Source of the DNA: Escherichia phage Paul
Length of the DNA: 64,000 bases
Direction: 5' to 3' (one strand)
Sequence record: NC_070992.1
The position numbers and the translations under genes are program-made. The notes below the pieces were generated by a model that saw nothing but the letters and a program-made list of their open reading frames with translations, searched no databases and was not told the origin of the DNA. This document shows, in pieces, positions 43,413 to 63,721 of this stretch (position 1 is the stretch's first letter; each line of letters begins with the position of its first letter).

Positions 43413-43440
43413 TGGTTTATATAAAAGAAAAGGCCACCCA
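43413..43440 (-). terminator. intrinsic terminator-like hairpin
   Basis: minus-strand GGCTACCC-AAAT-GGGTGGCC followed by TTTTCTTTT. Confidence 0.45.
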
Positions 43441-43456
43441 TTTGGGTAGCCTCATA

Positions 43457-44077: not shown

Positions 44078-44195
44078 TCATGCAGGTGTCTTCATTGAAC
44101 TCTTCACACTCAAAACATGCTCGTTCGATATTTTTGTAGAAGTCGATGGTTGATGAACCATCACCACAATCTCGGATAACTAAAGCGACTTTCAT
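44010..44195 (-). CDS. hypothetical Cys-containing protein (61 aa)
   Basis: start overlaps PhoH stop (coupling). Confidence 0.3.
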   Translation of the reverse strand: MKVALVIRDCGDGSSTIDFYKNIERACFECEEFNEDTCMNDGEPTIIDVPEGFVPPGGWSE

Positions 44196-44923
44196 TTATC
44201 TTGTTCCTTTTCCATAGCTTTAACAATAGCTTTACAGAAACCAGAACGAACAATGTCATCCGATTCGCCGTCTACAATCTCAGCGAACTCATACAGATCA
44301 TGTTCATCAATAAAGTTAGTAGCCCAAGTAAGACCGCTCTCACGACCACGCATATCATGCTGGTTAGTATCACCCATACAGAACAGCTGAGAGGTTTCTC
44401 CCAATCGAGTCATGATTGAGAAGGCTTCATCTTTAGTGGTGTTCTGGAACTCATCAACGATAACGATAGCATCATTGAAAGAACGACCACGGAGATACTC
44501 CAGAGGTACGAACTCAATGTTACTGTTACCGAGCTGGCATTCATAGAACCCCTTACCATATCGCTGAGTAATAACATCAATGATAGGCATCAGGTAAGGT
44601 TCAAACTTCTCGCGCATCCCTCCCGGAAGTAACCCAAGAGAATTACCCATGCCGACCGAAGGGCGACTCAGGATGATCTTCTGAATCTTACCACTCTTTA
44701 GTGCATCAATAACCGTGGAAGTGATTACAAAGGTCTTACCACAGCCCGCAGGAGCGTCTGTGAACACAACTTGTTTAGTCTTGATAGCATTTAGTAGTTC
44801 AGACTGAAACTGGTTCTGAGGTACTACAGGCTTCGCTAAAACCACTTCTTCAAACTCTCGCTTACCTTTACGAGTGACAAGTGCTTCCCGACGAAGATCT
44901 TTCCGTGATTGACGACGACTCAT
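44192..44923 (-). CDS. phoH: PhoH-like ATPase
   Basis: Walker A GCGKTFV and overall PhoH-like pattern. Confidence 0.8.
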   Translation of the reverse strand: MSRRQSRKDLRREALVTRKGKREFEEVVLAKPVVPQNQFQSELLNAIKTKQVVFTDAPAGCGKTFVITSTVIDALKSGKIQKIILSRPSVGMGNSLGLLPGGMREKFEPYLMPIIDVITQRYGKGFYECQLGNSNIEFVPLEYLRGRSFNDAIVIVDEFQNTTKDEAFSIMTRLGETSQLFCMGDTNQHDMRGRESGLTWATNFIDEHDLYEFAEIVDGESDDIVRSGFCKAIVKAMEKEQDK

Positions 44924-45117: not shown

Positions 45118-45302
45118 TCAGTAAGAGACCACAGAGAGTCACCTATGTGGGCATTGTCATTCCTGATGAGGTCTTTGATTTTATCAACATCAGTTAAGTG
45201 AGTCACATTCAAAACATCCTCAACATCCGGGGCATATTTAAATATGGCAACAATACTGTTGTGATCTTCAGCATATCTTTCTAGAACATAAACTACGCTC
45301 AT
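45102..45302 (-). CDS. hypothetical protein (66 aa)
   Basis: ORF only. Confidence 0.3.
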   Translation of the reverse strand: MSVVYVLERYAEDHNSIVAIFKYAPDVEDVLNVTHLTDVDKIKDLIRNDNAHIGDSLWSLTEWTLW

Positions 45303-45443
45303 GCGAAATCCTCTAACTTCGTAGAGAGTTTAATGATGCTGTTAATACTAATAATCTGATCTTGAGAAAGAATTCTACCTTTCATTTTACGGGACATCTT
45401 TCTTTTTGATCGTCTTTCTTGATAGAATCGGTTCTTTAAAGTC

Positions 45444-45767
45444 TTAACCATGACGTACACCTGTTTTAAGTCTGTAAACAGATAGGGCCATACAGGCCAC
45501 TGTTTCACTGTGTGGGAGATGCATTCCTGTAGAACCATCCCAGTCTTTGAACTCTTTGTCAAAGACTCCGGTAGGCTCTGGATACAAGGCTTGCAACTCA
45601 ACCAAATCATTAGCAACTTGTTGCCATTTATCATCAGACCAGATAGGGTCATCCAACCAGTAATACAAATAGGAATGGATGATCAATTGCCTTCTGTGCC
45701 GATTAATTACTTCAGCGGGACTTATTTCACTTCCATTTGAAGTCCTAAATGTATTACTGTCGATCAT
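45444..45767 (-). CDS. hypothetical protein resembling the N-terminal Ia domain of NAD-dependent DNA ligase (107 aa)
   Basis: HSYLYYWLDDPIWSDDKWQQVANDLVELQALYPE resembles the LigA Ia pattern YLYxVxDxPxIxDxEYDxLxxELxELExxxPE. Confidence 0.35.
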   Translation of the reverse strand: MIDSNTFRTSNGSEISPAEVINRHRRQLIIHSYLYYWLDDPIWSDDKWQQVANDLVELQALYPEPTGVFDKEFKDWDGSTGMHLPHSETVACMALSVYRLKTGVRHG

Positions 45768-45970
45768 TATGAAAATTTCCGTTCCGTTAAAAAGTACTGA
45801 ACTTCATTATCTGGAGACCAAACCTTTTCTCCATTTACCAATTTCTTAGCATCTTCATACGAAGCACAATCCAAAGCAGGGTTATCAGGTGTCGGTTTCC
45901 CTAGGAAATATTTCCAAGTCCAACGCTCTCCGTCATCATCTTGACAGTCAAGAGTCCATAATGTTTTCAT
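45767..45970 (-). CDS. hypothetical protein (67 aa)
   Basis: ORF only. Confidence 0.3.
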   Translation of the reverse strand: MKTLWTLDCQDDDGERWTWKYFLGKPTPDNPALDCASYEDAKKLVNGEKVWSPDNEVQYFLTERKFS

Positions 45971-46221
45971 TTCACAACCTTAAATTTGAATGTTGTTGGG
46001 TGGTAATAATGCAACCTATTGATAGTGTGCTTTGTTTCAAGGTATGTCCTACAGGAGTGGCACATAACATGAGACAAACCAGTCACAGGATTGGGCTTAA
46101 AATTGATGATCGGCTTTTCTTTCTTACAGAAGCTACAGACTTTCTTTTCCATCTTTTCTCCAGTGGTCAACGAATTGCTGAAACACTTTATGTTCGAATG
46201 TGAAACTTCGAGCAATCCCAC
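45967..46221 (-). CDS. small zinc-ribbon protein (start uncertain)
   Basis: CSFCK ... CHSC Cys pairs; 5' end overlaps the upstream ORF. Confidence 0.3.
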   Translation of the reverse strand: MGLLEVSHSNIKCFSNSLTTGEKMEKKVCSFCKKEKPIINFKPNPVTGLSHVMCHSCRTYLETKHTINRLHYYHPTTFKFKVVK

Positions 46222-46366
46222 ACTCTATGAAAGTAGAAGGCATATAGTCTACATCATCTTTAGATGTATGACCATAAACTTGAATAAGCTTTTTAATTTT
46301 ATCCTTCTCTCTTCGAGGAAGCATTCTAAATGCCTCCTGAATATCTGTAATATGTTTGATTTTCAT
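46133..46366 (-). CDS. hypothetical protein (77 aa)
   Basis: ORF only. Confidence 0.3.
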   Translation of the reverse strand: MKIKHITDIQEAFRMLPRREKDKIKKLIQVYGHTSKDDVDYMPSTFIECGIARSFTFEHKVFQQFVDHWRKDGKESL

Positions 46367-46512
46367 CAGAAATTCCTGCTAATCCTCTGGATTATGAGAA
46401 CAGCAATACTCACATACTCCGCAACATGGACAAATTTCTACACTTGGGTCATATGCGTCATCAACTGTCATCCCACACTTGGTGCAGAACACGTCATCAT
46501 CTTCTTCCAATA

Positions 46513-47169
46513 TTAACTCTCCAAAGTTTTCTTCAGGGCTGCCCATGAGATTGGGTAGAGCTTAGCCATCTCTTCGTCTAGGGATTTAGCAAATACTCGA
46601 ACTTCGTATTGAGCGTGAGAGGAGAGTCGCTGACGACACAACTCAAACCAGCCATACAAAGAACCAGTCCACACCCACTCAGTGATCATCCCCTGAGGTA
46701 GTACAAATCGGGCTTGCTCTGGTGCAATAAACTCAATCAACTTGTCATATGCTGCTAGAGAAGCTTCATATGCATCGTTAATTAACATTAATGCTTCAGC
46801 TCGCTCTCCGTCGATGAGCTGAACCCCTGAACCTGCATGGAGGTCCGAAGGTCTCGCAAAAATCTCTTTAGGGATGAAGACTTCAACTGCTCCATCTTTA
46901 TACCGCCGGGACATTTCGTTCCACGAGAATCCAACCTGATGCTTGCCCAGCTGTCTCGCAATTGCGATAGGTGCTTTGCATCGGAAACTGACTTGCGGGT
47001 GTCGGAATGGGGTAACATGCTTCTCTCTTGCGAGGAAGTTGATGAGACGTTCATCACGTTCATTTAAATCACCTTCACGGGTTACGCCAAAGGAAACTCG
47101 AGCTGCGTTTACTACGCTACGATCACTTCCCATAGCTTCGATTAATGTTGCTTGTAATTGTTCATTCAT
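46513..47169 (-). CDS. thyX: flavin-dependent thymidylate synthase ThyX-like
   Basis: HVTPFRH ... KAPIAIARQ ... NEMSRRY aligns with the ThyX core; the expected RHR signature reads KHQ. Confidence 0.75.
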   Translation of the reverse strand: MNEQLQATLIEAMGSDRSVVNAARVSFGVTREGDLNERDERLINFLAREKHVTPFRHPQVSFRCKAPIAIARQLGKHQVGFSWNEMSRRYKDGAVEVFIPKEIFARPSDLHAGSGVQLIDGERAEALMLINDAYEASLAAYDKLIEFIAPEQARFVLPQGMITEWVWTGSLYGWFELCRQRLSSHAQYEVRVFAKSLDEEMAKLYPISWAALKKTLES

Positions 47170-47851: not shown

Positions 47852-47912
47852 ATATCTATATCCTTATAAATAAGTTCGCCCCACCTCGGGTTAGGAGACA
47901 GGGCGGAGGTTT

Positions 47913-58940: not shown

Positions 58941-59019
58941 TTTCTAATCCACCTGAAGGGTAAACCCTTTCATCTAATTAACCTTTAAATTGTGCCCCTT
59001 TGCCAGAGGCACCCATTGA

Positions 59020-60123
59020 TTACAGCGCTTGCTCTAACTGATGTTCCAGATGATCTGGAATGTACCCTGTGATGTTATTATCACTGTGACCTGACTCACG
59101 AAGCAAGTCAAAAATAGCACGGATACGTTGTTCTGGTGCAGATCGTACTTGAGACAAGTCAGTTGTACGAAGCATAACCAGAATCTCTTGATATAAGTTG
59201 TTAGCGTTCCCTCGTACATATCCAAGGAATCCATAGAAGTCTGAGATAAGACGTAAGTCAACAAGAACCTCTCCGTTGGAGTTGGTTCGACGTAAACGAA
59301 TACGACCAGACTGTTCTACTTCATGAGAACGACAATACAAAACATCACGGGCCATACAATACCCTGAATGCAAATCCGATTCGTCCAGATTGTAATCCAG
59401 AGGAAGGTAAGGAAGCATTGGGGCAAATCGTACAGTATTTAAATGCTCAATAAACTGATCATTGCTCATCTCTGCGTTATCTAAAGCCAGTTTCTTCAAC
59501 ATCAAGAAGCGGTTAACCAGATTGAGAAGTTGACCACGTTTCCACTTAGGCTCACTGATACGGAACTCAATTGAACCATATTGTGCAAGTGGCAGAAGGT
59601 TCAGGGATGTATACTTATCCCATGAACGAACCAGACGATTGAAGAACTCTTCATCGTCGTAGTTAAATGCGTCAGAGGCATTCATTACCTGTGCTTGTAC
59701 CACTGCAAAAGCAGGGCAGAAGTTGCTACGGTAACGATGATAGCCTGAACACTTGAACAACATCTTTTCATAGAAGGTCCAAGCGAGAATGGTTTTCTTG
59801 AGGATATTACTATCAGCATCCCTCATATCCATATGAACGTGAGTAGAGCAACGCCAAGTCCCCTCGGCGTGCGATTCAGCTACTGCTTCACTCAGGTTGT
59901 TGATAGCGTCTAACAACTCCTGTCCGTTGTAAGGCCGTGAACATACCATTTCACAACCATTACGCAGGGAACCATCCTCTGTACAATCCCACATATCTGC
60001 TTCGATATGGTCGGAGCCTTCGAGTTCTAGTTCGATACCGACACCGCACTGAAGTGCAATTGAACTATGCGCCTCAGTTAAACGACCTTCTCGATATCCA
60101 AAAGTTTGCGCTACAGTTGTCAT
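59020..60123 (-). CDS. glutamine-synthetase-like amidoligase (carboxylate-amine ligase)
   Basis: IELELEG strand, GSLRNGCEMV, STHVHMD, consistent with the GS/GCS-like amidoligase fold. Confidence 0.55.
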   Translation of the reverse strand: MTTVAQTFGYREGRLTEAHSSIALQCGVGIELELEGSDHIEADMWDCTEDGSLRNGCEMVCSRPYNGQELLDAINNLSEAVAESHAEGTWRCSTHVHMDMRDADSNILKKTILAWTFYEKMLFKCSGYHRYRSNFCPAFAVVQAQVMNASDAFNYDDEEFFNRLVRSWDKYTSLNLLPLAQYGSIEFRISEPKWKRGQLLNLVNRFLMLKKLALDNAEMSNDQFIEHLNTVRFAPMLPYLPLDYNLDESDLHSGYCMARDVLYCRSHEVEQSGRIRLRRTNSNGEVLVDLRLISDFYGFLGYVRGNANNLYQEILVMLRTTDLSQVRSAPEQRIRAIFDLLRESGHSDNNITGYIPDHLEHQLEQAL

Positions 60124-60737
60124 AACGAATCCACCAACGTAATATTGTAATTGCTAAGGTTTTCAGAAATGTGATGAAAGTGTTCCAGAAGTCGCATCGG
60201 TTGCTGACCGTAAGAGTCACGAGGTGCTTCCAGATCTACTTGTCCTACCAGTGCACCTTTATAGTGCACCTTACCATCCGTAGGGTTGATGTAAATATAA
60301 CGAGTAACCAATCCTTCGAATTCAGGATTGAACAGACTGTAAACCATCTCTCCAGAGATAGCACGACCAACACCCGGAGCATTTCGAATCTTATTACCCA
60401 TTAAGCCCTTTGCTCTCTGGCGAACAGGGTTAATATGAGTCCAGCTTACAGTGTTACCGTTATGGAACAGATAACCAACGTCAGGTGATTCAAGAATTAA
60501 GGTTGGGTCGAACACTGGAATATTCATCGTAGTGTTTCGAAGATTCCCTTGCTCATTCTTGTACCACTGCTCTACAACAAAGTACAGAGCCTGTTCTGCT
60601 TCGTGAGAGAAGTCATCACTGCGGAAGTTACCGCTCTGCTCAACACCAATCACAAAACATGGAAGGTTGATACTACCTGCTCGTTTAGCAATCCATGTAC
60701 CATTATAGTAATGAGAAAAATCAGCTACTAAGCTCAC
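60120..60737 (-). CDS. hypothetical protein (205 aa), cluster member
   Basis: ORF overlapping neighbours by 4 nt; no motif recognised. Confidence 0.35.
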   Translation of the reverse strand: MSLVADFSHYYNGTWIAKRAGSINLPCFVIGVEQSGNFRSDDFSHEAEQALYFVVEQWYKNEQGNLRNTTMNIPVFDPTLILESPDVGYLFHNGNTVSWTHINPVRQRAKGLMGNKIRNAPGVGRAISGEMVYSLFNPEFEGLVTRYIYINPTDGKVHYKGALVGQVDLEAPRDSYGQQPMRLLEHFHHISENLSNYNITLVDSL

Positions 60738-60746
60738 GATAACCTC

Positions 60747-61553
60747 TTATGCTACCTGAAGGAGTTTGATCTGCTGGTCCGCTTCTTTAACGTTGTTGCC
60801 GTTAATGATTTCATGAAGCTTCTCAATCGGAAGGCGAGAGTGTAATGCCATCAGAGTGGACATATCGCACTGCTGAACAACCTTGTCAACCTGATCGTAA
60901 ACAAACTTACGGTTTTCACGATCACTAATCCAGAAGTTAGACAGTGAACGGTATTCAATACCATAGTCTTTATAACGGATTGCAGATGCTTTGCCATAGA
61001 GTTCTTTACGGCGAGTATCTTTGTCCATAATAACTGCTGGAAGTGACAGGAAGTAATCACACAGCACACCCAACATCATCTGAGTTTGCAGAGTGATATC
61101 CAAAGCACCAACCACACCAAGATGTACGTGACCACCGGCAGTACGAAGTCCCTTATTCTGAGAAGTCGGGGATGGATTCTTCTGACCAGTGAAGGCGTTG
61201 AAATCAGGAGTGCACCCGAAGATGAACGCTGATTCGTTGAAAGTTTTCATCTCTTCTTCAGTGAAGATGTGAGAGCTAACACCCGGAGCAGTTTCCATGT
61301 CCAGTTTGTTCAGGACATTATTGGTGAGATCGATACCACGTTGCATGTTATCGTTAAACGCTTCAAAACCGCTCTGTGGGTCAATATCAAACTCAGCCAG
61401 TACGTTGTCCTCTTGAAGACGAACATCCTTAGCCAGGGTGATCTTATCGTCCTTAGAACAGCCTAACAGACCAGCCACAGAAGTGATGATGCCATTGCTG
61501 GTACGAACAAACATTTCAGGATCAGAGCCGATAAGGAATTTGCGCTTAGTCAT
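60747..61553 (-). CDS. candidate second COOH-NH2 ligase-like protein (268 aa)
   Basis: FLIGSDPEMF and GGHVHLG resemble the ExE and HxH elements of GS-like ligases; weaker than 59020-60123. Confidence 0.4.
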   Translation of the reverse strand: MTKRKFLIGSDPEMFVRTSNGIITSVAGLLGCSKDDKITLAKDVRLQEDNVLAEFDIDPQSGFEAFNDNMQRGIDLTNNVLNKLDMETAPGVSSHIFTEEEMKTFNESAFIFGCTPDFNAFTGQKNPSPTSQNKGLRTAGGHVHLGVVGALDITLQTQMMLGVLCDYFLSLPAVIMDKDTRRKELYGKASAIRYKDYGIEYRSLSNFWISDRENRKFVYDQVDKVVQQCDMSTLMALHSRLPIEKLHEIINGNNVKEADQQIKLLQVA

Positions 61554-62517
61554 TGTAATACTCCACTAGTTCAGAAAAGAGAGATGAGATTGTGTTACCA
61601 ACTTCTTCAGTAGTAAGGCCAGAACTTGGGCCAGTACGTTGAATTAGTCGGGCTGTAAAGTTTTGTACTATAATGTTTTCCAACTTATTGTCTATTGCTT
61701 CACGTTTGTGACCATGACAGTTGGACCAGAGTCTTAACCACTCTGACATTGTTTCATACTCGTCCGGGTCTTGATCTTTAGCACGAGCAAATCTTCGTAA
61801 GGCATCTTGGTTATGGTTGCGAACATAACCGTCCTTGTTGTCACCAACACCGAAGGGGTTTTGAACCCATACTTGTTTCGTGTATTCATCAGAGTCTACA
61901 ACCAAAGGAAGGAATGCTGCTGCTGACATATTGTTGTTAACAACAATAGAGGTGCTCTCGCTACTCCCATTGGCTCTTCCTCGTTGAGACCACCCACCGA
62001 AGAAGTCACGACCCAACCCAGCTAACACTAGAGCGATTCCGATGCGTTTACGCTTCAGCCACTCTTCCCTGTCTTCAATTCCTTCTGCTAGGAAATCCAT
62101 TCCACGATACTGCCCTTCCAGAATACTGCGGAAAAGCATAAGTCCTGTGAAGATTTGATCTGCTGGATGCTCACGGAGGTTGACAGCAACACTATTCGCT
62201 GAAGTGATCGTAAATACATCACGATAGCAAGACATAGAGTTCATAATGTCTGCTGTTTCAACCAAGTTCTTTTCAATATCAGATGAAACATGACCGTGAA
62301 AAGAGTGAGTCCAGTAATTCAACATCTCCAGTTGCAAGTTGATATCACGGTTGAAACGTCTATAACGTCCTTCTTCCGTGATAACTTCGCCATCAATATC
62401 ATTTACGCATTGGCCTTGCATGTAGTTGTGAATACCGAAGCACCCACGACCTAAGAACTTCTGTTCCCCTAAATCTTGTTGAAGATTCAGAGGTACGATC
62501 GTTGTGGAGATTGACAT
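61546..62517 (-). CDS. hypothetical protein (323 aa), cluster member
   Basis: ORF; no motif recognised. Confidence 0.35.
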   Translation of the reverse strand: MSISTTIVPLNLQQDLGEQKFLGRGCFGIHNYMQGQCVNDIDGEVITEEGRYRRFNRDINLQLEMLNYWTHSFHGHVSSDIEKNLVETADIMNSMSCYRDVFTITSANSVAVNLREHPADQIFTGLMLFRSILEGQYRGMDFLAEGIEDREEWLKRKRIGIALVLAGLGRDFFGGWSQRGRANGSSESTSIVVNNNMSAAAFLPLVVDSDEYTKQVWVQNPFGVGDNKDGYVRNHNQDALRRFARAKDQDPDEYETMSEWLRLWSNCHGHKREAIDNKLENIIVQNFTARLIQRTGPSSGLTTEEVGNTISSLFSELVEYYND

Positions 62518-62527
62518 AACTAACCTT

Positions 62528-63721
62528 TTATTTTCCTAAAAATAATCCGCTCATAACACCATCCCACTCAGAGGATGGAATCACTGAATACTCCGAACTT
62601 TGGTCCAGAATCCCACTACTAAATCGCTGAACAATGTTGTAGATGTTGAACAGGTCTTTAGCCTCGGCACGAATGCCGTAGATTAGCCTGTTAGCTGTTT
62701 TCTCATTTTTAGACACGCGACGGGTAAAGTTAACCAAAAGATTGTCACCTTTAAGTATCTCTGACCCATCTTTTACTAGATCGGGGTGCATCACTGGCAA
62801 GAACATTGAGTTGTTAACTCGCAATTCTGCTGTTTCATCGTTCTCATAATGAATCCACTTAAAGTCTTCATCACGGAAGTGACCACATCCATCTCTGTAC
62901 GACTGCTGACGCCAAGGCACTTGAAATGCTTCAGCGTATTTATCAGCCATACCTACTGTAAACAGCGACGCTGGGAAGATACAAGCATCCCAATCATTAC
63001 CAACCAGAGTTGCTTTCGTTTCGCCCAAGAGGTTAGTGTAAGTGCTAACCATTCGTGAGTAAACATAAGCCTGAAGGATTGTCCAGCCTTCAACCAACCA
63101 TTTATGAAGGAAGGTTTCAACTTGACTCTCTTCATCTTCGCAATAGAAGGTTCGATCTAACATCAAATAGAACAGACAACGATCAGCAGGAACATTCTCA
63201 GTTGCTACCCCCATAAAACCTTTCTCGTGCCAGCGTAAACAGGAGGGACGATCTTTGTCCACAAATGCTTCCATAGCTTCCAGTACAGCACGAGGTGTGG
63301 TTCGATGCTCAGGGTTTTTGTCATTCCAACGTTCAATGTTGTTTTTAAGCTCGCCTTCGTAATCAATAGCACCCCAACCTAAAGCTGCGGATACAGGTTT
63401 TTCATCACGCCAACGTCTAAAACCTAACATCTTCATGTGAGTTCCGGAGTTCCAGATATGCTTGATTTTACACATATCCATTTCTCGACTTAACAGGAAC
63501 TCTTCCCCATCAGCACTACGAACGTTAGCTTCTTCATGCCACACTCGAACGTGCATATTCCACCCATGAGTTGCCTCATACATGTTAGGGTCGAAGTATT
63601 CATCTTCGTCATCATCCTCATCAACGCCACCGTTATAGTTGCGAAGCTGAAGGAACCCATAACAAGGAGGGTTGACCGTTAAAACATTACCTTCAGTATC
63701 TTCTAATGTTACTGGAAACAT
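62528..63721 (-). CDS. hypothetical protein (397 aa), cluster member
   Basis: ORF; acidic N-terminal tract, several Cys; no motif recognised. Confidence 0.35.
   Translation of the reverse strand: MFPVTLEDTEGNVLTVNPPCYGFLQLRNYNGGVDEDDDEDEYFDPNMYEATHGWNMHVRVWHEEANVRSADGEEFLLSREMDMCKIKHIWNSGTHMKMLGFRRWRDEKPVSAALGWGAIDYEGELKNNIERWNDKNPEHRTTPRAVLEAMEAFVDKDRPSCLRWHEKGFMGVATENVPADRCLFYLMLDRTFYCEDEESQVETFLHKWLVEGWTILQAYVYSRMVSTYTNLLGETKATLVGNDWDACIFPASLFTVGMADKYAEAFQVPWRQQSYRDGCGHFRDEDFKWIHYENDETAELRVNNSMFLPVMHPDLVKDGSEILKGDNLLVNFTRRVSKNEKTANRLIYGIRAEAKDLFNIYNIVQRFSSGILDQSSEYSVIPSSEWDGVMSGLFLGK

What the first reader, a model, noticed from the sequence alone, without database searches (positions are those of the whole stretch)
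45444..45767. Stand-alone protein resembling the NMN-binding Ia domain of NAD-dependent DNA ligase
A 107-aa ORF has the spacing of aromatic, acidic and Pro residues seen at the N-terminus of bacterial LigA, the domain that binds the NMN moiety of NAD+, with no adenylation domain attached. An isolated Ia-like domain could bind NAD+/NMN or interfere with host LigA. The assignment is from memory of the LigA sequence and is tentative.
Basis: inference. Interest (0 to 1): 0.4.

Follow-up and report, generated by a model that had tools for sequence, protein, structure and literature searches.

The report
Stand-alone ligase NAD-binding domain in phage
An E. coli phage that has no DNA ligase of its own encodes just the small NAD-recognising head of the bacterial ligase as a separate 107-residue protein; this family was described by computation in 2022, and its function has never been tested.

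Summary
Window 45444..45767 (minus strand) is a real 107-aa gene under purifying selection (dN/dS about 0.1). It matches Pfam PF22745 "Nlig-Ia" (E 4e-33), and the same model also matches residues 4-54 of authentic E. coli LigA. Profile comparison with E. coli LigA (E 6e-9) and fold searches (the top 25 PDB hits are all LigA N-termini) agree.

All five positions that bind NMN in LigA stay conserved in kind across 273 relatives: Y, Y, D, W/F/Y and Q/D. A loop and a third helix are specific to the solo proteins.

The window is a phiEco32-like Kuravirus. Neither it nor its closest complete relative encodes a ligase catalytic module.

Iyer et al. 2022 described solo Nlig-Ia in 81 phages. Their example, ECBP2_0056, is the syntenic orthologue (76% identity).

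No experimental study was found in the held library. The protein most likely binds NMN or NAD+ without catalysis, and a role acting on host LigA is not excluded.

My own additions:
- The gene sits in replication or nucleotide-metabolism modules in unrelated phages.
- One lineage fuses the domain to a helicase, and one has it next to NAMPT.
- It is widely mislabelled "DNA ligase".

The parts
45444..45767 (-). Gene for a 107-aa stand-alone Nlig-Ia (LigA domain Ia-like) protein; the end coordinate range includes the TAA stop at 45444-45446
   Evidence: ORF list and sequence. Pfam PF22745 at 114 bits, E 4e-33, covering model positions 1-88 of 92. PHROG 6466, E 6e-40. dN/dS 0.08-0.12. AlphaFold2 model with pLDDT 89.6 and pTM 0.82.
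45576..45719 (-). Residues 17-64: two-helix hairpin (H17-37, H45-61) homologous to LigA domain Ia. It carries the predicted NMN-contact residues Y35, Y36, D45, W48 and Q49.
45513..45551 (-). Residues 73-85: family-specific conserved loop F-x-D-W-D-G-S-T-G-M-H-L-P. It is not covered by any profile or HMM match to LigA.
   Evidence: F73 99%, W76 90%, G78 90%, T80 90%, G81 99%, L84 96%, P85 84% across 273 sequences. E. coli LigA matches only positions 2-52 of the 92-position Pfam model.
45447..45506 (-). Residues 88-107: third helix (H88-106), also specific to the solo proteins
   Evidence: Secondary structure of the model. Full-length structural matches (TMq 0.7-0.9) occur only to phage solo proteins in BFVD.
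45767..45970 (-). Upstream 67-aa gene of unknown function; its stop overlaps the Nlig-Ia start
   Evidence: Annotated in the reference phage as gp062. No PHROG match.
45299..45451 (-). Downstream 50-aa gene of unknown function; its start overlaps the Nlig-Ia 3' end by 8 nt. The 117-aa ORF listed at 45299..45652 is this gene extended to an upstream in-frame ATG.
   Evidence: Reference gp060. PHROG 35253, E 6e-9.
44192..44923 (-). PhoH-like ATPase gene, downstream in the same block (context)
   Evidence: Reference annotation. A recurrent neighbour of Nlig-Ia, found in 10 of 92 loci.
46513..47169 (-). ThyX thymidylate synthase gene, upstream in the same block (context)
   Evidence: Reference annotation. 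The same PhoH...Nlig-Ia...ThyX order is seen in phage ECBP2.
47877..47905 (-). Terminator-like hairpin upstream of the gene block (11 pairs, T-rich tail)
   Evidence: Consensus scan only.
43430..43453 (-). Terminator-like hairpin downstream of the gene block (10 pairs, T-rich tail)
   Evidence: Consensus scan only. The reference record annotates a terminator at a nearby, not exactly matching, position.

Best explanation
The gene encodes a small three-helix protein. It is a free-standing copy of the NMN-recognising domain Ia of bacterial NAD+-dependent DNA ligase, with a family-specific conserved loop and third helix added. It has no catalytic module and is not a ligase.

Most likely it binds the nicotinamide-mononucleotide moiety of free NMN and/or NAD+ non-catalytically, using the same residues as LigA. 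Y35 and W48 would stack on the nicotinamide, and D45 and Q49 would hold the ribose.

It is made together with the phage's replication and nucleotide-metabolism genes. The phage brings its own polymerase, primase-helicase and 5'-3' exonuclease but must borrow the host's NAD+-dependent ligase. I infer that the protein senses or buffers the nicotinamide-nucleotide pool on which that borrowed ligase depends, for example when host defences degrade NAD+. This is what Iyer et al. 2022 proposed.

What is shown here: homology, fold, residue conservation, architecture, absence of a ligase gene, and genomic context. What is inferred: ligand binding and the physiological role.
For: - Homology: PF22745, E 4e-33. 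The same model hits authentic E. coli LigA residues 4-54 at 48.5 bits against a cutoff of 27. hhalign E 6e-9. PDB profile hits lie only at LigA N-termini.
- Binding positions: all five positions equivalent to E. coli LigA Y22, H23, D32, Y35 and D36 are among the most conserved columns in 273 relatives. By my own knowledge of Sriskanda & Shuman 2002 (reference 14 in PMC7470946), these residues are needed for the reaction with NAD+. The review states that nicotinamide stacks on a pair of tyrosines in Ia.
- No ligase in the phage: none in the reference annotation, none by Pfam on 10 of the window's large non-structural ORFs (the rest are named by the reference annotation), and no tblastn match of the LigA catalytic region to the window.
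- Context: the gene lies in replication or nucleotide-metabolism modules in unrelated phages, and next to NAMPT and PRPP synthase in Rhodococcus phage Weasels2.
- The published prediction is the same.
Against: - No binding data exist for any member; none was found in the held library.
- The D36 equivalent is Q in this protein and in 77% of the relatives sampled, and Y35 is W. The pocket is therefore not identical to that of LigA.
- In LigA the NAD+ pocket is completed by the nucleotidyltransferase domain, which is missing here.
- A 107-aa protein could hardly buffer millimolar NAD+, and a sensor with no effector domain needs an unknown partner.
- NAD-salvage genes lie within 7 kb in only 1 of about 92 sampled loci.
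Confidence: 0.55

Rival explanations
1. The free Ia domain docks onto the host LigA, either on its nucleotidyltransferase domain or in place of its own Ia. This would stimulate or sustain adenylylation at low NAD+, recruit LigA to the phage replisome, or inhibit it. On this reading the protein is a ligase accessory or hijacking factor rather than a metabolite sensor.
For: - The phage and its relatives lack any ligase yet encode their own replisome, so they depend on host LigA (PMC9503650).
- The gene sits among replisome genes in unrelated phages. Examples: after primase-helicase and Pol I in Arthrobacter phage Adumb2043, between RecA and the clamp loader in Dp-1, and in the gp45-gp44-gp62...gp33-gp59-gp32 block of T4-like contigs.
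- It is fused to an SF2 helicase in ReqiPepy6 and ReqiPoco6.
- In LigA, Ia works by closing over the NTase domain.
Against: - The cis Ia of LigA has a large advantage in effective concentration over a free domain.
- No LigA-interaction data exist.
- The host range spans Proteobacteria, Firmicutes and Actinobacteria, while the most conserved residues are the ligand-contact ones rather than an obvious interface.
- Early and middle phage regions mix replication genes with many unrelated small genes, so the context is weak evidence.
- The helicase fusion is confined to one lineage.
Confidence: 0.2
2. The Ia-like pocket recognises a different nicotinamide-containing target, such as the NMN end of NAD-capped RNA or a nicotinamide-derived signal. 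Alternatively the fold has been reused as a ligand-independent adaptor in the phage replication or nucleotide-metabolism machinery.
For: - The W/Q variant of the pocket and the extra invariant loop F-x-D-W-D-G-S-T-G-x-H-L-P show that the solo family has diverged from LigA Ia.
- LigA matches only the first 52 positions of the Pfam model.
- Occasional fusions and tandem triplication (P0220) suggest a modular binding unit.
Against: This is pure inference, with no supporting context such as Nudix or decapping genes. The NJ01 'NAD+ diphosphatase' neighbour is only a 43-aa zinc ribbon. Conservation of exactly the LigA NMN-contact positions is most simply explained by NMN or NAD+ itself.
Confidence: 0.12
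3. It is a functional NAD-dependent DNA ligase, as annotated in many GenBank records and stated for phage YF01.
For: Annotations such as 'NAD-dependent DNA ligase' or 'DNA ligase' on orthologues, and the statement in PMC9965538.
Against: The protein has 107 residues. There is no match to the adenylation domain PF01653, nor to the OB, zinc-finger, HhH or BRCT domains that E. coli LigA shows. It has no nucleotidyltransferase module, hence no site for the lysyl-AMP intermediate.
Confidence: 0.01

Closest known systems
Solo Nlig-Ia proteins of phages (Pfam PF22745; Iyer, Burroughs, Anantharaman & Aravind 2022, Viruses 14:1977; type example ECBP2_0056)
   Same: Same family and same gene. ECBP2_0056 is 106 aa, 76% identical over 100 residues, and lies in the same PhoH...ThyX interval. 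It has the same stand-alone architecture and its phage also lacks a ligase.
   Different: Nothing substantive; this is an orthologue in another kuravirus. Three details were not mentioned in the text of that paper that I read. The clade carries W/Q instead of Y/D at two pocket positions. The C-terminal loop is conserved. The gene sits in replication modules.
Domain Ia of bacterial NAD+-dependent DNA ligase LigA (e.g. E. coli 2OWO/5TT5, E. faecalis 1TA8/1TAE)
   Same: Homologous two-helix hairpin, 29% identity to E. coli LigA 2-53. The positions of Y22, H23, D32, Y35 and D36 are retained as Y, Y, D, W and Q.
   Different: It is not attached to a nucleotidyltransferase domain. It has an extra conserved loop and third helix that no profile or HMM match to LigA covers. 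D36 is Q and Y35 is W in this clade. It is essentially virus-restricted, with only 4 loci in 185,579 species genomes, at least one of them a predicted prophage.
Phage small-molecule sponges against NAD-derived immune signals (Tad1, Tad2) and phage NAD+ reconstitution pathways (NARP1/2)
   Same: These are phage-encoded proteins acting on the NAD+ network during host-phage conflict, which is the same general arena as the proposed role. This comparison rests on my own knowledge, not on any test here.
   Different: There is no sequence or fold relationship. Tad proteins bind cyclic ADPR-type signals that lack nicotinamide. NARP enzymes are catalytic. No anti-defence activity has been shown for Nlig-Ia.

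Membership tests
Pfam PF22745 Nlig-Ia (solo phage form) | Score above the curated gathering threshold of the family model, over its full length | tested here: met
   114.3 bits against a cutoff of 27, residues 16-100 on model positions 1-88 of 92. All 52 aligned relatives match.
Pfam PF22745 Nlig-Ia (solo phage form) | Alpha-helical hairpin fold superposable on LigA domain Ia | tested here: met
Pfam PF22745 Nlig-Ia (solo phage form) | Stand-alone protein with no ligase catalytic module in the same polypeptide | tested here: met
   107 aa with no other Pfam domain. Homologues are 60-210 aa, with few exceptions.
Pfam PF22745 Nlig-Ia (solo phage form) | Host phage lacks a separate NAD+- or ATP-dependent ligase catalytic module (true of 80 of 81 phages in Iyer et al.) | tested here: met
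   None in the 64-kb window by tblastn with LigA 70-671. None among 10 large non-structural ORFs scanned with Pfam. None annotated in the complete 77-kb reference genome. ATP-dependent ligases were checked only through Pfam and the annotation.
Pfam PF22745 Nlig-Ia (solo phage form) | Conservation of the ligand-contact residues of LigA Ia (E. coli Y22, H23, D32, Y35, D36) | tested here: met
   Y35, Y36, D45, W48 and Q49. Three are identical in kind (Y, D, aromatic). H to Y also occurs in T. filiformis LigA. D36 to Q is a polar but uncharged change. Family frequencies are Y 99%, Y 99%, D 100%, W/F/Y about 99%, and Q 77% / D 16%.
Pfam PF22745 Nlig-Ia (solo phage form) | Actual binding of NAD+ or NMN | not testable with these tools
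   No ligand docking or experiment is available, and no published measurement was found.
NAD+-dependent DNA ligase (LigA, EC 6.5.1.2) | Nucleotidyltransferase (adenylation) domain with the motif I lysine | tested here: not met
   No PF01653 match even at E <= 10, whereas E. coli LigA gives 370 bits. The protein ends about 40 residues after the Ia hairpin.
NAD+-dependent DNA ligase (LigA, EC 6.5.1.2) | OB fold, zinc finger, HhH and BRCT DNA-binding modules | tested here: not met
   None detected. All are detected in E. coli LigA by the same scan.
Polymorphic-toxin immunity protein Imm41 (PF15592) | Score above the Pfam gathering threshold | tested here: not met
   21.2 bits against a cutoff of 26.9, over 36 residues only. 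Just 3 of 52 relatives give any hit. Imm41 is described as alpha+beta with different conserved motifs. I treat this as a chance or marginal match.

The most novel reading that the evidence does not exclude
The free Ia domain is a counter-defence or replication-assurance factor. It would capture NMN or NAD+ with higher affinity than LigA's own Ia and dock on the host LigA nucleotidyltransferase domain, or strip inhibitory NMN from it. This would keep the borrowed host ligase adenylylated, so that lagging-strand joining of phage DNA continues while NAD+-depleting defences such as SIR2 or TIR systems are active. That would be a new way for ligase-less phages to evade abortive infection, and the first example of a cofactor-specificity domain supplied in trans.
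Probability: 0.12. Interest if true: 0.7.

Novelty: already known. Interest (0 to 1): 0.3.

Why it matters
NAD+ is central to many bacterial anti-phage systems, and to the host ligase that ligase-less phages must borrow. A widespread, virus-restricted, free NMN/NAD+-recognition module is a plausible but untested player in that conflict. It occurs in 276 of 50,697 phage records and in about 590 clusters at 50% identity.

The protein is small, confidently modelled and easy to test. There is also a practical point: hundreds of database records, and at least one paper, call it a "DNA ligase". That wrongly implies these phages are self-sufficient for nick sealing.

Tried and rejected
- **Imm41 lead.** The Pfam hit is below threshold, is seen in 3 of 52 relatives, and the fold description differs. 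Dropped.
- **NAD-metabolism neighbours.** NAMPT and PRPP synthase abut the gene in Rhodococcus phage Weasels2. phmmer and tblastn with those seeds and a LarB-like seed found nothing in the other ~91 loci, so there is no general association.
- **Hidden ligase module.** Pfam on 10 large window ORFs gave an ATP-grasp, amidoligases, a CCA/poly(A)-polymerase-like NTase, a Metallophos phosphoesterase and a 3'-5' exonuclease, but no ligase. tblastn of LigA 70-671 was negative.
- **Fusion partners of longer homologues.** Pfam found nothing beyond Nlig-Ia. PHROGs matched one C-terminal extension to a 'minor head protein' family, which is uninformative.
- **'NAD+ diphosphatase' neighbour in phage NJ01.** It is a 43-aa zinc-ribbon ORF, not a Nudix enzyme.
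- **Immediate neighbours in the window.** Only PHROG families of unknown function.
- **Literature.** Ten searches found no experimental work on the family in the held library. The primary LigA structure and mutagenesis papers were not held, so the residue roles rest on my own knowledge plus the review.
- **Tools.** The afdb50 fold library was unavailable. Model coordinates could not be read, so I could not measure whether the conserved loop lies over the Y35/W48 pocket.

Full report
**What is in the sequence.** The ORF lies on the minus strand at 45444..45767 and has an ATG start, 107 codons and a TAA stop. Its start overlaps the stop of a 67-aa upstream gene (TAATG). Its last 8 nt overlap the start of a 50-aa downstream gene. 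The ORF listing entry of 117 aa at 45299..45652 is that downstream gene extended to an earlier in-frame ATG. The reference phage annotates the short form, and a PHROG family matches it.

The gene is one of about sixteen tightly packed minus-strand genes lying between two terminator-like hairpins, at 47905..47877 and 43453..43430. These come from a consensus scan only. The block includes thioredoxin, ThyX and PhoH.

The window is a phiEco32-like podophage of E. coli (Gordonclarkvirinae, Kuravirus). It is about 96% identical over this region to vB_EcoP_WFI101126, in which the gene is gp061.

**Is it real?** Against six kuravirus orthologues, dN/dS is 0.08-0.12, with dS up to 1.6. The large protein database holds 144 homologues with E <= 1e-3, all 69-185 aa. 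An exhaustive profile search finds 592 clusters at 50% identity with E <= 1e-10, nearly all 60-210 aa. This is a conserved protein-coding gene, not a chance ORF.

**What it is.**
- Pfam assigns it to PF22745 "Nlig-Ia, DNA ligase-like N-terminal NAD+-binding domain" at 114 bits (cutoff 27, E 4e-33), over essentially the whole model.
- PHROG 6466 matches at E 6e-40.
- The same Pfam model matches residues 4-54 of authentic E. coli LigA at 48.5 bits, but only over model positions 2-52 of 92.
- A profile of 52 relatives aligned to E. coli LigA 1-100 gives hhalign probability 95.9% and E 6e-9 over 52 columns at 29% identity.
- Searched against PDB sequences, that profile retrieves LigA chains from six or more species, always at their N-termini. 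The best E is 3e-4.

In the viral structure library, full-length matches (TMq 0.7-0.9) go to about 18 phage proteins of similar size. Phage NAD+ ligases follow, aligned over 45-80 columns only.

**Residue-level comparison.** By the alignments, E. coli LigA H18, Y22, H23, D26, P28, D32, Y35 and D36 correspond to H31, Y35, Y36, D39, P41, D45, W48 and Q49. From my own knowledge of Sriskanda & Shuman 2002 (cited as reference 14 in PMC7470946), Y22, H23, D32, Y35 and D36 are the Ia residues required for reaction with NAD+. The review itself states that the nicotinamide stacks on a pair of tyrosines of Ia.

| Position here | LigA equivalent | Frequency in 273 solo-family sequences |
|---|---|---|
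| Y35 | Y22 | Y 99% |
| Y36 | H23 | Y 99% |
| D45 | D32 | D 100% |
| W48 | Y35 | W 89%, F 6%, Y 4% |
| Q49 | D36 | Q 77%, D 16% |

The last two positions co-vary. W goes mostly with Q (208 sequences), and F or Y almost always goes with the LigA-like D (26 sequences). The predicted pocket is therefore the best-conserved part of the protein. In this clade, however, it is a W/Q variant of the LigA Y/D pocket.

A second conserved block has no counterpart in the profile and HMM matches to LigA: F73-x-D-W76-D-G78-S-T80-G81-x-H-L84-P85, each 84-99% conserved. A direct multiple alignment did tentatively place LigA's D-S-P-T beneath the D-G-S-T of this motif. I infer, but could not verify, that this loop and the third helix complete the pocket that the nucleotidyltransferase domain completes in LigA.

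**What it is not.** It is not a ligase. It has no adenylation, OB, zinc-finger, HhH or BRCT domain, whereas E. coli LigA shows all of these in the same scan.

The phage does not carry a ligase elsewhere either:
- The complete reference genome annotates a polymerase, a primase-helicase, 5'-3' and 3'-5' exonucleases, dCTP deaminase, ThyX and others, but no ligase.
- Pfam on ten of the window's large non-structural ORFs finds none.
- tblastn with LigA 70-671 is negative on the window and on all fetched loci.

Even so, orthologues are labelled "NAD-dependent DNA ligase" or "DNA ligase" in many records, and one paper lists it as the phage's ligase.

**Prior knowledge.** Iyer, Burroughs, Anantharaman and Aravind (Viruses 2022, PMC9503650) named the domain Nlig-Ia and reported it as a solo protein in 81 phages. 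They noted that all but one of these lack any ligase catalytic module. They proposed it as a stand-alone NAD+-binding sensor or shield against NADase effectors. Their example, ECBP2_0056, lies between PhoH and ThyX in a sister phage and is 76% identical to the window protein. The finding is therefore the orthologue of the published type example. Ten literature searches found no experimental work on the family in the held library.

**Distribution and context.** tblastn finds the domain in 276 of 50,697 phage records. Hosts include Escherichia, Arthrobacter, Clostridium, Enterococcus, Erwinia (jumbo phages), Rhodococcus, Carnobacterium and Streptococcus. It is almost absent from cellular genomes: 4 loci in 185,579 species representatives, at least one of which coincides with a predicted prophage.

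In annotated phages the gene lies in replication or nucleotide-metabolism modules:

| Phage | Position of the gene |
|---|---|
| Erwinia Phobos | near thymidylate synthase |
| Arthrobacter Adumb2043 | after primase-helicase and Pol I |
| Streptococcus Dp-1 | between RecA and the clamp loader |
| Clostridium CS42 | between NrdD and NrdG, next to primase |

I ran an unbiased clustering of ORFs within 7 kb in 92 loci, most of them IMG/VR contigs. The recurrent neighbours were a SleB-like hydrolase (22 loci), the gp33 late coactivator (21), gp32 SSB (17), DUF932 (16), gp59 helicase loader (11), PhoH (10), a staphylococcal-nuclease homologue (10), clamp-loader gp62 (8) and gp44 (7), RegA (8), ThyX (7), thioredoxin (7) and the gp45 clamp (6). 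This is the T4-type replication block.

The association is suggestive but not decisive. Such regions also hold many unrelated small genes, and many of the sampled loci are related to one another.

Two special cases stand out:
- In Rhodococcus phage Weasels2 the gene overlaps the end of a nicotinamide phosphoribosyltransferase gene, the enzyme that makes NMN, with a PRPP synthase gene nearby. This was unique among the sampled loci.
- In ReqiPepy6 and ReqiPoco6 the domain is fused to the N-terminus of a 542-aa SF2 helicase that is mis-annotated as "DNA ligase".

**Mechanism.** I commit to non-catalytic binding of the NMN moiety of free NMN and/or NAD+, using the LigA-like pocket. The protein would be co-expressed with replication genes in a phage that depends on the host's NAD+-dependent ligase, and would serve to sense or buffer that nucleotide pool. 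My confidence is about 0.55 for ligand binding and a non-ligase role, and lower for the physiological purpose.

The main rival, at about 0.2, is a trans-acting effect on host LigA. This fits the replisome context and the helicase fusion, but has no direct support. A different nicotinamide-bearing ligand, or a ligand-independent adaptor role, is possible at about 0.12. The database label "DNA ligase" is refuted by the architecture.

**Verdict.** The family has been known since 2022 and has a Pfam entry, but its function has not been tested. The interest is modest. The value lies in a clean, testable candidate for phage handling of NAD+ or NMN, and in correcting a widespread mis-annotation.

Noticed in passing
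L017 3959-5587 (Rhodococcus phage ReqiPepy6 gp102; also ReqiPoco6 gp102): Nlig-Ia (PF22745, E 2e-32) is fused to the N-terminus of a 542-aa SF2/DEAD-like helicase that both records annotate as 'DNA ligase'. Related Gordonia, Arthrobacter, Streptomyces and Lactococcus phage helicases lack the domain. I did not see this fusion mentioned in the text of the 2022 paper that I read.
   Followed up: partly
L014 1027-4288 (Rhodococcus phage Weasels2 gp245-gp242): PRPP synthase, an HNH endonuclease, NAMPT (PF04095 + PF18127) and solo Nlig-Ia lie in a row, with Nlig-Ia overlapping the NAMPT stop. An NMN-producing enzyme sits next to the predicted NMN-binding domain. This arrangement was unique among about 92 sampled loci.
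   Followed up: yes
Proteins P0220, P0182 and P0210 (metagenomic homologues): P0220 (321 aa) appears to carry three tandem Nlig-Ia-like units (three stretches by the family profile, two by Pfam), with the LigA-like F-D pocket variant in the first unit. P0182 and P0210 carry a roughly 200-aa C-terminal extension; the P0182 extension matches PHROG 13900 ('minor head protein').
   Followed up: partly
GenBank/RefSeq records and PMC9965538: The ~100-130-aa solo proteins examined here are labelled 'DNA ligase' or 'NAD-dependent DNA ligase' in many phage records (Escherichia, Arthrobacter, Clostridium, Enterococcus, Erwinia, Streptococcus Dp-1). One paper counts it as the phage's ligase. This is a propagated mis-annotation.
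   Followed up: yes
window 46379-46546 (-): A 55-aa acidic ORF with a CxxC...CxxC zinc ribbon. Its 43-aa counterpart in phage NJ01 is annotated 'putative NAD+ diphosphatase', apparently only because of similarity to the NudC zinc ribbon. There is no Nudix domain.
   Followed up: partly
window 45444-45767 (-), residues 32-67: A sub-threshold Pfam match to Imm41 (21.2 bits against a cutoff of 26.9). Imm41 is an immunity protein linked, among others, to ADP-ribosyltransferase toxins. Only 3 of 52 relatives match, so it is probably chance.
   Followed up: partly
window 55264-63721 (-): A cluster of an ATP-grasp enzyme, a glutamine amidotransferase, an Amidoligase_2 protein, a phiEco32-type COOH-NH2 ligase (PF14395) and several large ORFs with no Pfam match. 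This is the known phiEco32-like peptide-ligase and modification gene set, whose substrate I did not look into.
   Followed up: no
window 50236-51636 (-): A 466-aa protein with only a weak poly(A)-polymerase/CCA-adding head-domain match (19 bits, below cutoff). The reference annotates it as 'nucleotidyltransferase'. It lies next to the 3'-5' exonuclease and primase-helicase genes.
   Followed up: no
window 45967-46221 (-) and 46133-46366 (-): Two overlapping-frame small ORFs upstream of the gene. One is an 84-aa Cys-rich protein (PHROG 15951, with weak similarity to the N-terminal zinc fingers of HNH and endonuclease VII). The other is a 77-aa protein in PHROG 4452, labelled 'anti-restriction nuclease'. 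They overlap by about 90 nt, so one start may be miscalled.
   Followed up: no
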